Virus record (IMG/VR): IMGVR_UViG_2850784384_000005
Direction: 5' to 3' (one strand)
Length of the DNA: 17,981 nt
Source: a virus
Taxonomy: Duplodnaviria > Heunggongvirae > Uroviricota > Caudoviricetes
Below, in pieces: positions 8,797 to 9,055 of the stretch (within the stretch, counting starts at the first letter, position 1; each line of letters begins with the position of its first letter). The position numbers and the translations under genes were made by a program. Under the pieces are notes generated by a model. The model was not told where the DNA came from, searched no databases, and saw nothing but the letters and a program-made list of their open reading frames with translations.

Positions 8797-8833
8797 AAAA
8801 AAAGTCCTGGGGTTAAGTAAGGAACTCCAGGAC
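8797..8833 (-). terminator. Intrinsic-terminator-like hairpin plus U7 ending a roughly 200-nt leader, directly abutting the capsid ATG
   Basis: Stem GTCCTGG (8804-8810) / CCAGGAC (8827-8833), with U7 on the minus strand from the A-run 8797-8803. The capsid ATG is at 8794-8796. Confidence 0.45.
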
Positions 8834-9010
8834 GCGGCAAACACTCAACCGTTTTTCATAAGGAAATCAGTAATCGCACCGATCGTTTTCCCGCCTGGTA
8901 ATGAATATTGGCGAGCACATTAACAGGCGGGAAAGTGGCCCCAGCGTCCTGGCACCACGGGCGAGAATAATCATGATTCAGTTCGGGTAAAATATGCCGA
9001 TCCGCTCAGT

Positions 9011-9036
9011 GAACAACGTGGAACAACCACGAACAA
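9011..9036. promoter_or_regulatory. Phased hexamer array, copy b: GAACAA at 9011, 9021 and 9031, overlapping a putative -35 of the capsid-operon promoter
   Basis: Read directly. On the minus strand this is TTGTTC x3, followed about 16 nt later by TATTTT (a -10-like hexamer). Confidence 0.5.
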
Positions 9037-9055
9037 ATAATTTACAAAAAATAAC

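What the first reader, a model, noticed from the sequence alone, without database searches (positions are those of the whole stretch)
8797..9050. Capsid operon preceded by promoter, leader and terminator: possible antitermination control
Between the terminator of the upstream gene and the capsid ATG lies the GAACAA array with -35-like and -10-like hexamers, a leader of about 200 nt containing a long dyad (CCGCCTG ... CAGGCGG, 8891-8930), and a hairpin plus U7 ending one nucleotide before the ATG. This resembles lambdoid late-operon control, where a short transcript terminates unless an antiterminator modifies RNA polymerase. The satellite may couple head-gene expression to a helper's late regulator. 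This is a hypothesis only.
Basis: inference. Interest (0 to 1): 0.6.

Follow-up and report, generated by a model that had tools for sequence, protein, structure and literature searches.

The report
Satellite capsid operon promoter and leader
The stretch in front of the capsid gene of this E. coli phage satellite holds a regulated promoter and a conserved, folded 160-nucleotide RNA leader that hides the capsid start site, so the satellite probably gates capsid production itself and does not borrow a helper phage's late switch.

Summary
All coordinates are on the minus strand. The window is a decayed capsid-forming PICI, like EcCIEDL933, inserted beside phoQ.

Comparison with about 200 related islands gives the region a clearer layout:
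- **Binding array.** Four hexamers sit at helical spacing: TTGTAA, then TTGTTC three times (9047-9011). The same motif recurs in both att arms and in the int-alpA spacer. The island's own AlpA (an Xis-like excisionase and activator) most likely binds it.
- **Promoter.** The -35 is TTTACC (8991-8986) and the -10 is TATTCT (8969-8964). A TAnnnT hexamer occupies the -10 position in all 27 aligned leaders and all 99 further leaders.
- **Leader RNA, about 160 nt.** P1 and P2 show compensatory base changes.
- **P3.** It buries the Shine-Dalgarno sequence. Only in the E. coli lineage is it followed by U7-U8, which gives it the form of an intrinsic terminator.
- **Alternative helix.** P1 can pair with the 5' arm of P3 instead, and this pairing also covaries.

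The idea of a gated leader is supported. Coupling to a helper Q-like protein is not: published work shows these capsids are made without a helper and after alpA overexpression. Rfam has no match, and I found no published description of this region. No transcript or binding data were available.

The parts
9097..9321 (-). Upstream gene (74 aa, phrog_1957, unknown function). It is the last gene before the capsid control region and is conserved across cf-PICIs.
   Evidence: ORF list. Homologues lie upstream of the leader in 25 loci. PHROG match E = 2.4e-40.
9050..9077 (-). Intrinsic-terminator-like hairpin (stem 9077-9060) plus T-run that ends the upstream gene and insulates the capsid promoter.
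   Evidence: Terminator scan. Exact 23-nt duplicate at 9441-9419.
9011..9047 (-). Phased array of four hexamers: TTGTAA (9047-9042) and TTGTTC at 9036-9031, 9026-9021 and 9016-9011, with periods of 11, 10 and 10 bp. Centred at about -86, -75, -65 and -55 from the predicted start. Proposed AlpA (Xis-like activator) binding site.
   Evidence: Homology to E. coli relatives with different upstream genes begins exactly at 9049 (H20).
8986..8991 (-). Predicted -35 element TTTACC, with a 16-bp spacer to the -10.
   Evidence: Conserved (G)TTTAC at the same offset in 99 IMG/VR leaders. Unchanged in 26 type-A variants.
8964..8969 (-). Predicted -10 element TATTCT.
   Evidence: T, A and the final T are invariant at alignment columns 20, 21 and 25 in 27 of 27 leaders. 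The hexamer is TAnnnT in 99 of 99 further leaders.
8935..8958 (-). Leader hairpin P1 (GUGGUGCCAG-GACG-CUGGGGCCAC). The predicted transcription start lies at its first nucleotides (8958-8956). The GACG loop is unchanged in 26 of the 27 aligned leaders (GGCG in L073).
   Evidence: all cells paired, 4 pairs with changes on both sides. Folding energy -15.6 kcal/mol.
8887..8934 (-). It is the counterpart of the variable, covarying P2 stem of other cf-PICI leaders.
   Evidence: Folding energy -22.6 kcal/mol.
8852..8860 (-). UAUGAAAAA segment predicted to pair with the U-run and the AUG, closing a three-way junction around P3.
   Evidence: Minimum-free-energy folds. Prediction only.
8804..8835 (-). 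Leader hairpin P3. The 5' arm GCGUCCUGG (8835-8827) is also complementary to P1 (8952-8944). The 3' arm CCAGGAC (8810-8804) contains the Shine-Dalgarno sequence AGGA (8808-8805).
   Evidence: I9, I11. Folding energy -14.1 kcal/mol. Duplex test 3 of 500 shuffles. Covariation.
8797..8803 (-). U7 tract directly after P3 and directly before the ATG. With P3 it has the form of an intrinsic terminator. It is also the spacer between the Shine-Dalgarno sequence and the AUG.
   Evidence: U7 or U8 in all 26 type-A variants. Absent in all type-B leaders.
7639..8796 (-). HK97-type major capsid gene, first gene of the packaging operon. Here it is interrupted by an in-frame stop at 7971-7969.
   Evidence: Pfam PF05065 on both halves. 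The intact 385-aa homologue is 99% identical.
7608..7629 (-). GC-rich hairpin plus short T-run right after the capsid stop codon. It is terminator-like or attenuator-like and conserved in position across cf-PICIs.
16912..16947 (+). Second TTGTTC/TTGTTG array (4-5 copies, 10-bp period) in the int-alpA spacer, inverted relative to the capsid array. This is the alpA promoter region.
   Evidence: AlpA activates its own promoter in EcCICFT073 (PMC6092414).
1579..1604 (-). Third array (TTGTGT, TTGTTC, TTGTTT), 110-135 bp inside the island end and next to two GGTGTAGTYAA repeats (1560-1538). This is the att arm.
   Evidence: (junction near 1469/1470).
16441..16629 (-). alpA (62 aa), an excisionase and transcriptional-regulator family protein. 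Proposed binder of the arrays.
   Evidence: PHROG 2790, E = 1.7e-17.

Best explanation
The interval is the island's own control region for the capsid and packaging operon. It works at two levels.

(1) DNA level. A weak sigma-70 promoter (TTTACC, 16-bp spacer, TATTCT, start near 8957) is switched on by a protein that polymerises on four hexamers set one helical turn apart just upstream. That protein is most likely the island's AlpA, an Xis-like winged-helix protein that would also act as excisionase at the same motif in the att arms and activate its own promoter.

(2) RNA level. The transcript begins with two adjacent hairpins (P1, P2). It ends in a third hairpin (P3) that buries the Shine-Dalgarno sequence. 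In the E. coli lineage P3 is followed by U7-U8, so it should also terminate part of the transcripts right at the start codon. The thermodynamic default is off.

The loop and 3' strand of P1 can instead pair with the 5' arm of P3. That would dissolve P3, free the ribosome-binding site and prevent termination. What flips the switch is unknown.

What the sequence comparison shows:
- the conserved promoter elements;
- the covarying P1 and P2 hairpins;
- the covarying alternative P1:P3 helix;
- the recurrence of the array motif at att and at the alpA promoter region.

What is inferred:
- that AlpA binds the array;
- the exact start site;
- that P3 really terminates or blocks translation;
- that the alternative helix acts as a switch.
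For: Promoter:
- TAnnnT is invariant at the same offset from P1 in 27 of 27 aligned leaders and 99 of 99 IMG/VR leaders, while the inner three positions vary.
- TTTAC sits 16 bp upstream, and both elements are unchanged in 26 type-A variants.
- In H20 (and, from the terminator, H14-H19), whose upstream sequence does not match the window, homology starts at 9049, the array's edge; in cross-genus relatives the conserved TTGTAAAT block is preceded by unrelated, often opposite-strand, sequence.

Array:
- It is enriched well above chance.
- [TTGTTC x3] plus [GGTGTAGTTAA x2] occurs in both att arms of the complete EcCIEDL933-like island. The motif also occurs, inverted, in the alpA promoter region.
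- An island with a different integrase and attachment site shows the same pattern at the right end, upstream of int and at the capsid promoter; its int-alpA spacer matches are weak.
- The island junction maps to about 1469/1470.
- AlpA belongs to the excisionase/regulator family.
- AlpA activates its own promoter and the island cycle (PMC6092414).
- Overexpressing alpA is used to produce the capsids that were purified.
- Xis/AlpA/Vis relatives bind tripartite direct repeats (PMC2603039).

Leader:
- P1 and P2 are 94.8% paired against 28-46% for slid controls, and 13 of 19 pairs carry changes on both sides.
- A hairpin next to the AUG is present in most leader families examined (types A and B, long Xenorhabdus leaders); several AT-rich short leaders show none.
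- The Shine-Dalgarno sequence lies in the 3' arm of P3.
- The alternative helix is 95.5% paired against 21-61% for slid controls. One position takes three Watson-Crick states (U-A, G-C, C-G).
- That association holds in 122 of 124 unique leaders.
- P1 is the best partner of the P3 5' arm anywhere in the leader: 3 of 500 shuffles do as well in the window.
Against: - There are no transcript-end, footprint or reporter data, so the start site, AlpA binding and termination are all unproven.
- The closed form is 11.7 kcal/mol more stable than the alternative form in the window, and 5.9 kcal/mol in a type-B leader. A trigger is therefore required, and none was identified.
- The three states of the covarying P1/P3 position fall into three clades, so they may reflect only two or three evolutionary events.
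- The AlpA sequence class and the array motif class are only weakly associated across islands. Many islands with TTACC-type arrays have no AlpA detectable by tblastn.
- Integrase arm binding to TTGTTC is not excluded.
- The first two array sites are conserved even between islands with different AlpA types, which could mean a host factor binds them.
- A subset of type-B islands carries a hairpin plus T-run between the array and the -35 element. The window has no counterpart.
Confidence: 0.55

Rival explanations
1. First reader's model. A short leader transcript stops at P3-U7 unless a helper phage's Q-like late antiterminator modifies RNA polymerase at this promoter, tying head-gene expression to the helper's late phase.
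For: A promoter, a leader of about 160 nt and a hairpin plus U7 are present, as at lambdoid PR'-tR'. A further terminator-like hairpin follows the capsid gene, as would suit processive antitermination.
Against: - cf-PICI capsids are made in a non-lysogen without helper phages and after alpA overexpression.
- The array motif is the island's own att and alpA-promoter motif.
- No -10-like pause element is conserved in the first 25 transcribed nucleotides of the type A and type B leaders.
- No Q-family protein turned up among the island ORFs that were scanned.
- More than 100 related leaders have no U-run after P3.
Confidence: 0.06
2. put-like RNA antitermination. P1 and P2, two adjacent hairpins at the very 5' end of the transcript, bind the transcribing RNA polymerase in cis, as HK022 putL does. 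This makes the polymerase resistant to P3-U7 and to the terminator after the capsid gene, with no protein factor.
For: - P1 and P2 are 0-3 nt apart and begin at the predicted start site.
- The type-B P1 sequence is identical as a 25-mer in at least 120 viral contigs from many genera, in islands with different AlpA types. That fits recognition by a conserved host machine such as RNA polymerase.
- Terminator-like hairpins lie downstream.
- The putL architecture is described in PMC9378689.
Against: - There is no sequence similarity to the HK022 genome, including its early regions, by nhmmer or blastn.
- The model does not explain why P1 is complementary to P3 with covariation.
- It does not explain why P3 covers the ribosome-binding site in lineages that lack a U-run.
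Confidence: 0.13
3. No switch. The promoter alone does the regulating. The leader hairpins only stabilise or process the mRNA (a 5' hairpin as protection, P2 as a possible RNase III site). The U-run is just the A/U-rich spacer between the Shine-Dalgarno sequence and the AUG. P3 is opened by ribosomes without any help.
For: - P1 sits at the predicted 5' end, where hairpins protect mRNA.
- The capsid gene is also followed by a conserved hairpin, which is typical of a stabilised, highly expressed cistron.
- The U-run is absent in most lineages.
- The alternative fold is much less stable than the closed fold.
Against: - The P1:P3 complementarity is kept through compensatory changes in 122 of 124 leaders. 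A pure stability role does not require that.
- A GC-rich 7-bp stem plus U7-U8 of -14 kcal/mol is a canonical terminator form, and it is conserved in all 26 type-A variants.
- Burying the Shine-Dalgarno sequence and the AUG of the most abundantly needed protein is odd unless it is regulated.
Confidence: 0.2
4. There is no promoter here. The capsid operon is read through from the upstream alpA / replication operon, and the array is only a recombination or replication site.
For: The consensus scan reports no promoter in the interval. All island genes lie on the same strand in this window.
Against: - Two terminator-like hairpins lie directly upstream.
- In many relatives the genes upstream are variable or sit on the opposite strand, while the control region is kept from the array onward.
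- The invariant TAnnnT and TTTAC elements sit at fixed spacing.
Confidence: 0.05

Closest known systems
Multifunctional excisionase-regulators that bind phased direct repeats (lambda and Gifsy-1 Xis, P2 Cox, 186 Apl, P4 Vis, CP4-57 / PICI AlpA)
   Same: - A small Xis-like protein is encoded by the element (AlpA).
- Three to four direct repeats sit at about 10.5-bp spacing.
- The same motif lies next to putative integrase arm sites in the att arms and at promoters.
- AlpA is known to activate its own promoter and the PICI cycle (PMC6092414).
- Relatives bind tripartite direct repeats (PMC2603039).
- The roles of Cox, Apl and Vis at promoters come from my own knowledge, not from a paper read here.
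   Different: - Binding of AlpA to TTGTTC has not been shown.
- The arrays lie in both att arms, whereas lambda has Xis sites in one arm.
- In the papers I could search, a capsid-operon promoter as an AlpA target has not been described.
Lambdoid late control (Q protein, PR', tR' terminator)
   Same: A promoter, a short leader ending in an intrinsic-terminator-like hairpin plus U-run, and a long morphogenesis operon downstream with further terminator-like hairpins.
   Different: - No Q gene was found.
- No conserved sigma-dependent pause element was found, and no binding site sits between the -35 and -10.
- The upstream array is of the activator type.
- The terminator overlaps the ribosome-binding site and start codon.
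- Capsids are made without a helper.
HK022 put RNA (cis-acting polymerase-modifying antiterminator)
   Same: Two adjacent stem-loops right after the start site of a phage-type operon that contains terminators.
   Different: No sequence similarity. P2 is variable in length and sequence. P1 is complementary to the downstream hairpin, a feature not known for put.
Terminator / antiterminator and ribosome-binding-site-sequestering leaders (attenuators, riboswitch expression platforms)
   Same: Mutually exclusive helices. A 5' element (P1) can pair with the 5' arm of a hairpin that both precedes a U-run and hides the Shine-Dalgarno sequence. Both conformations are supported by covariation.
   Different: - No ligand, leader peptide or RNA-binding protein has been identified.
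- No Rfam family matches.
- The closed state is strongly favoured.
Pseudomonas aeruginosa AlpA (Q-like antiterminator)
   Same: The name, and the general theme of promoter-proximal terminator control (PMC9371919).
   Different: The P. aeruginosa protein is longer (DNA-contact residues numbered up to H142) and folds like the Q protein of phage 21, with a binding element between the -35 and -10. The island's AlpA is a 62-aa Xis-like protein, which I take to be a different family (not compared by sequence). The shared name is a trap.

Membership tests
Sigma-70 promoter | -10 hexamer with conserved T-12, A-11 and T-7 | tested here: met
   TATTCT at 8969-8964. TAnnnT in 27 of 27 leaders and 99 of 99 leaders, with the inner positions variable.
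Sigma-70 promoter | -35 element at 16-18 bp spacing | tested here: met
   TTTACC at 8991-8986 with a 16-bp spacer, matching TTGACA at 4 of 6 positions. TTTAC is conserved at the same offset. It falls below the 9-of-12 threshold of the scan.
Sigma-70 promoter | Mapped primary 5' end | not testable with these tools
   No transcript data. The start is predicted at 8958-8956.
Xis/AlpA-type binding array | Three or more direct repeats at helical phasing | tested here: met
   Sites at 9047, 9036, 9026 and 9016, with periods of 11, 10 and 10 bp.
Xis/AlpA-type binding array | Same motif in the att arm(s) beside integrase arm-type repeats | tested here: met
   Window 1579-1604 lies next to GGTGTAGTYAA x2. 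Both arms carry it in L082 and L081.
Xis/AlpA-type binding array | Element encodes a protein of the family | tested here: met
   alpA at 16629-16441. PHROG 2790 'excisionase and transcriptional regulator', E = 1.7e-17.
Xis/AlpA-type binding array | Motif co-varies with the protein's sequence class | tested here: inconclusive
   The GGxxVGW class never carries TTACC arrays (0 of 20). The NSCxW class carries both array types, and many islands show no detectable AlpA.
Xis/AlpA-type binding array | Direct protein-DNA binding | not testable with these tools
   Needs a gel shift or footprint.
Intrinsic (Rho-independent) terminator | GC-rich hairpin immediately followed by a U-tract | tested here: met
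   P3 at -14.1 kcal/mol plus U7. U7-U8 in all 26 type-A variants. The terminator scan did not list it; its stem-plus-3-8-nt-loop pattern does not fit P3's interrupted stem, so the form is somewhat atypical.
Intrinsic (Rho-independent) terminator | Conserved as a terminator in homologous leaders | tested here: not met
   Type-B leaders keep the hairpin but have ACTCC or similar in place of a U-run.
Lambdoid Q-dependent late control | Q-family antiterminator available to the element | tested here: not met
   The island ORFs that were scanned match no antiterminator family (not every small ORF was scanned). The helper's genes are outside the window. Capsids form without a helper.
Lambdoid Q-dependent late control | Q-binding element at the promoter plus a -10-like pause signal in the early transcribed region | tested here: not met
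   Positions +1 to +25 are the GC-rich P1. No TAnnnT-like element is conserved between type A and type B. The repeats lie upstream of the -35.
HK022 put RNA | Two adjacent stem-loops near the 5' end of the transcript | tested here: met
   P1 and P2 are 0-3 nt apart and both covary.
HK022 put RNA | Sequence or profile similarity to putL / putR | tested here: not met
   nhmmer with both leader alignments and blastn-short against the whole HK022 genome gave only chance-level hits, none in the early region.
HK022 put RNA | Factor-independent antitermination through the beta' zinc-binding domain | not testable with these tools
   Needs in vitro transcription or rpoC mutants.
Switching leader (attenuator or riboswitch-like) | Two mutually exclusive helices, each supported by covariation | tested here: met
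   P1 against the helix of columns 40-48 with 165-173, which share columns 40 and 45-48. Association holds in 122 of 124 leaders.
Switching leader (attenuator or riboswitch-like) | Identified trigger (ligand, protein, ribosome or RNA) | tested here: not met
   - No convincing leader ORF was found.
- No complementary sequence occurs elsewhere in the window.
- The fold model of the conserved upstream 74-aa protein was uninformative (pLDDT 68.5, no Foldseek match).
Any Rfam family | Covariance-model match | tested here: not met
   No match at the gathering score in the whole window. Only chance-level hits at E up to 1 in the window leader and in a type-B leader.

The most novel reading that the evidence does not exclude
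The 5' leader of cf-PICI capsid operons is an undescribed, widespread cis-regulatory RNA. It occurs in at least 160 viral contigs and dozens of Enterobacterales genomes. Its P1 hairpin and its hairpin over the ribosome-binding site exchange strands to gate capsid synthesis. In E. coli it also gates transcription, through the added U-run. The trigger may be a satellite-specific factor or RNA polymerase itself. If so, this would be the checkpoint that lets these satellites make tail-less capsids autonomously.
Probability: 0.35. Interest if true: 0.72.

Novelty: new variant of a known kind. Interest (0 to 1): 0.6.

Why it matters
cf-PICIs are the satellites that build their own capsids and steal only tails. 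How they time and limit capsid production is not described in the papers I could search. This region offers three testable handles:
- a defined promoter;
- a candidate AlpA operator shared with the att sites, which would link excision, autoregulation and head synthesis to one small protein;
- a conserved leader with two covarying, mutually exclusive folds over the capsid ribosome-binding site.

If the switch is real, it is a new RNA family absent from Rfam. It could also be used to control engineered PICI delivery particles. If it is not real, the promoter and operator map still corrects the idea that the helper's late regulator drives satellite head genes.

Tried and rejected
- **Rfam.** Searches of the window, its leader and a type-B leader found nothing.
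- **Phage collection.** blastn of both leader types found only cf-PICI-like records, including a 106-kb 'phage' record that simply contains an island.
- **HK022 put.** No similarity by nhmmer or blastn. I did not build a covariance model, because the 3' strand of P2 aligned too raggedly.
- **The conserved 74-aa protein upstream (phrog_1957) as the trigger.** Only near-identical homologues could be used for modelling. The AlphaFold model reached pLDDT 68.5, and Foldseek against the PDB gave no hit with E below 1.
- **PerC as the activator.** An intact PerC gene lies upstream in EcCIEDL933-like islands. It is only a remnant in this window and is absent from cf-PICIs of other genera.
- **Promoters I considered and dropped.** The TTGTAAAT block as a -10 or -35, and TTGTTC-N16-TATTTT. 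Neither has conserved partner hexamers.
- **Start-codon pairing in short Xenorhabdus leaders (CAUGGUGUU / AACACCAUG).** It looked like covariation, but uncompensated A.C and U.C mismatches are as frequent as compensated changes, so I do not rely on it.
- **A trans-acting complement of P1 in the window.** None found.
- **AlpA class against array class.** Only a weak association.
- **P. aeruginosa AlpA.** It shares the name but, judged from its size and described fold, it appears to be an unrelated Q-like protein.
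Full report
**Context**

The window carries phoQ (1-1461, + strand). Beyond it, on the minus strand, lies a phage satellite of the capsid-forming PICI type. Its genes, in order along the island, are:
- integrase (17981-17004)
- alpA (16629-16441)
- a D5-type primase (12251-10503)
- small ORFs
- an HK97-type major capsid gene (8796-7639)
- prohead protease, portal, head-tail adaptor proteins, HNH endonuclease, small and large terminase

The island is 96% identical over most of its length to the EcCIEDL933-type island of O157 strains, which sits at the same roxA-phoQ site. 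This copy is decayed:
- two IS elements are inserted;
- only a remnant of the PerC gene remains;
- an in-frame stop (7971-7969) falls where all 14 aligned intact homologues have an invariant tryptophan.

**Checking the observation**

On the minus strand the order of features is as follows.
1. The end of a 74-aa gene (9321-9097).
2. A terminator-like hairpin at 9077-9060 plus a T-run.
3. TTGTAA at 9047-9042.
4. Three perfect TTGTTC at 9036, 9026 and 9016.
5. A 17-nt-arm dyad at 8934-8887.
6. A hairpin at 8833-8804 followed by U7 (8803-8797), which touches the ATG at 8796.

The phased motif occurs 11 times in the window against 2.05 expected; no shuffle out of 200 reached 11. The 221-nt stretch 9010-8790, which holds the leader, folds better than all 200 shuffles, z = -3.49. 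The observation therefore stands, with small corrections to coordinates. The consensus scan does not report a promoter in the interval.

**The array**

The same motif, at the same 10-bp period, occurs at two other places in the window.
- One is the int-alpA spacer (16912-16947, inverted).
- The other is 110-135 bp inside the island end (1579-1604), next to two GGTGTAGTYAA repeats.

Island-free E. coli genomes match the window only up to about position 1469, which fixes the junction.

In the complete O157 island, both att arms carry the module [three TTGTTC-type hexamers] plus [two GGTGTAGTTAA]. An island with a different integrase, a different attachment site (cspD-clpS) and a different AlpA allele shows the same pattern at its right end, upstream of int and at the capsid promoter; its int-alpA spacer matches are weak.

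AlpA belongs to the excisionase and transcriptional-regulator family. In EcCICFT073 it activates its own promoter and triggers excision and replication (PMC6092414). Relatives such as Gifsy-1 Xis and lambda Xis bind tripartite direct repeats cooperatively (PMC2603039).

The simplest assignment is that TTGTTC arrays are AlpA sites and GGTGTAG repeats are integrase arm sites. This is inference. A crude test for co-variation between AlpA class and array class across islands was only weakly positive. In addition, the first two sites (TTGTAAAT-N3-TTGTTC) are conserved between islands with different AlpA types.

**The promoter**

I fetched 80 related islands from other Enterobacterales genomes, two annotated E. 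coli islands, and viral contigs that carry the leader.

Leaders from Proteus, Citrobacter, Serratia, Erwinia, Pantoea, Kosakonia and others ('type B') are homologous to the E. coli/Shigella leader ('type A'). In both types the distance from the TTGTAAAT block to hairpin P1 is 87-89 nt.

Eleven nucleotides upstream of P1 lies a hexamer whose first, second and last positions are invariant while the middle three vary. It reads TAnnnT in 27 of 27 aligned leaders and in 99 of 99 further unique leaders. Sixteen base pairs further upstream, TTTAC is conserved.

In the window these elements are TTTACC (8991-8986) and TATTCT (8969-8964). Both are unchanged in 26 type-A variants. This combination scores 8 of 12, just under the scan's threshold, which explains.

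The start is then predicted at 8958-8956, the first nucleotides of P1. The four array sites would be centred near -55, -65, -75 and -86, which is the layout of an upstream activator.

In the E. coli relatives whose upstream sequence does not match the window, homology begins at the upstream terminator or, in H20, exactly at the array. In the cross-genus relatives the conserved TTGTAAAT block is preceded by unrelated, often opposite-strand, sequence.

**The leader RNA**

P1 (8958-8935, loop GACG) and the base of P2 are strongly supported.
- 94.8% of cells are paired, against 28-46% when partners are slid by 1-3 columns.
- 13 of 19 pairs carry changes on both sides.
- P1 never breaks, and it includes G.U pairs, which favours RNA over a DNA palindrome.

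Most leader families examined have a hairpin (P3) right next to the start codon (types A and B and the long Xenorhabdus leaders); several AT-rich short leaders show none. In the window its 3' arm contains the Shine-Dalgarno sequence AGGA (8808-8805). The predicted fold also pairs the U-run and the AUG with UAUGAAAAA (8860-8852).

Only type A has a U-run after P3, and there it is U7 or U8 in all 26 variants. One CC-to-UU double change keeps the stem paired. Type B ends with GGAAACC-ACTCC-ATG and has no U-run. The conserved property of P3 is therefore occlusion of the ribosome-binding site. The terminator form is a feature of the E. coli lineage.

**A second, exclusive helix**

The loop and 3' strand of P1 are complementary to the 5' arm of P3.
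- In the window this is CCAGGACGC (8952-8944) with GCGUCCUGG (8835-8827).
- In type B it is AGACGUGAG with UUCACGUCU.

On the 27-leader alignment this helix is 95.5% paired, against 21-61% for slid controls. One pair takes three Watson-Crick states: U-A in 21 leaders, C-G in 3 and G-C in 3.

Across 124 unique leaders the association is nearly perfect:
- P1 inner pair A-U goes with an A in P3 in 91 of 92 leaders;
- C-G goes with a C in 11 of 11;
- type A G-C goes with a G in 20 of 21.

P1 is also the best partner for the P3 arm anywhere in the leader. Only 3 of 500 shuffles do as well in the window. The figures are 7-51 of 500 in three type-B leaders, and 20-24 of 500 for an analogous element in two unrelated Xenorhabdus/Photorhabdus leaders.

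The two helices share nucleotides, so they cannot coexist. The closed form (P1+P2+P3) is favoured by 11.7 kcal/mol in the window and by 5.9 kcal/mol in a type-B leader. Opening therefore needs a trigger, and I could not identify one. The three states fall into three clades, so the number of independent evolutionary events is small.

A gated leader is plausible. Coupling to a helper Q-like protein is not supported, for these reasons.
- They also report capsids purified from an alpA-overexpressing strain (10.1101/2025.02.11.637232 and 10.1101/2022.09.08.507074).
- I found no Q gene among the island ORFs that were scanned, no conserved pause signal, and no binding element inside the promoter.
- The P. 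aeruginosa protein called AlpA, which is a Q-like antiterminator, is larger and folds like the Q protein of phage 21, so I take it to be unrelated (PMC9371919).

A put-like role for P1-P2 remains a live rival.
- In favour: two adjacent 5' hairpins, extreme conservation of P1 across genera, and terminator-like hairpins downstream, including a conserved one right after the capsid gene.
- Against: there is no similarity to HK022, and the model does not explain the P1:P3 complementarity.

**Novelty**

No Rfam family matches. The phage collection contains the leader only in cf-PICI-like records. The searchable literature on PICIs does not describe a promoter, operator or leader for the packaging operon.

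The kinds of mechanism involved are all known: an Xis-like activator on phased repeats, and a leader that sequesters the ribosome-binding site or terminates. This particular leader family, and the proposed link of att sites, alpA autoregulation and head genes through one motif, appear to be undescribed.

**Verdict**

The best model is an island-autonomous, AlpA-activated promoter followed by a default-off structured leader with a candidate strand-exchange switch. All functional steps still need experiments.

Noticed in passing
window 7969-7971 (- strand), inside the capsid gene 8796-7639: An in-frame stop codon splits the major capsid gene into 275-aa and 109-aa parts, at a position where all 14 aligned intact homologues have an invariant tryptophan (W276). 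Together with the two IS insertions, this copy of the island is probably defective.
   Followed up: partly
window 14858-16204 and 12597-13294: A 448-aa ORF I take to be an IS4-family transposase (not scanned) and IS1-like ORFs interrupt the region between alpA and the primase. The O157 relative has small genes there instead, including an Icd-like gene.
   Followed up: partly
window 9448-9552 (- strand): Only a C-terminal remnant of a PerC-family regulator gene remains here. EcCIEDL933-like islands carry intact SSB and PerC genes at this place. PerC is absent from cf-PICIs of other genera.
   Followed up: yes
window 9419-9441 and 9056-9078: An exact 23-nt duplicate of the terminator hairpin (AAAAAGCCGGATTGCTCCGGCTG on the + strand) follows two consecutive small genes.
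   Followed up: no
window 1975-2010 (- strand): A separate array of four GTGACA hexamers at a 10-11 bp period lies about 500 bp inside the island end. It is also present in the Shigella relative. Its function is unknown.
   Followed up: no
window 1538-1560 (- strand); L082 1465-1490 and 16700-16725: Two tandem GGTGTAGTYAA repeats lie next to the TTGTTC arrays in both att arms and are probably integrase arm-type sites. The island junction is at about 1469/1470, just after the phoQ stop codon.
   Followed up: partly
window 10327-10424: A long hairpin between the primase gene and the next ORF gave weak, chance-level matches to microRNA precursor models. It could be the replication origin, which in PICIs follows the primase gene.
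   Followed up: no
window 7608-7629; same position in L002, L008, L055, L057, L062, L066, L072, L073, L011, L058: A GC-rich hairpin, often GGGGC-UUCG-GCCCC, plus a short U-run sits directly after the capsid stop codon in nearly all cf-PICIs examined. The sequence varies but the structure is kept.
   Followed up: partly
window 9097-9321; homologues in 25 loci: The 74-aa protein phrog_1957 is conserved across cf-PICIs as the last core gene before the variable region and the capsid control region. Its function is unknown and the structure prediction was uninformative.
   Followed up: partly
L002 3966-3990, L064, L057, L072 and many Xenorhabdus loci (between the array and the -35): A subset of type-B and Xenorhabdus islands has a terminator-like hairpin plus T-run (for example CCCCTGTCTCTGACGGGGG-TTTTCTTT) between the repeat array and the promoter. 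The window has no counterpart; its insulating terminator lies upstream of the array.
   Followed up: partly
L062 about 2640-2700; L077 about 40-110: At the tRNA-proximal (attL) end of some type-B islands, the TTACC-type repeats are followed by TTTTTCATGTAT, the same sequence that precedes the capsid -10. The two control regions may therefore share a design.
   Followed up: no
L070 and L071, 870 nt upstream of the capsid gene: In two Symbiopectobacterium loci the array, the promoter and the start of P1 lie 870 nt upstream of the capsid gene, and the sequence diverges within P1. This suggests an insertion or decay of the leader.
   Followed up: no
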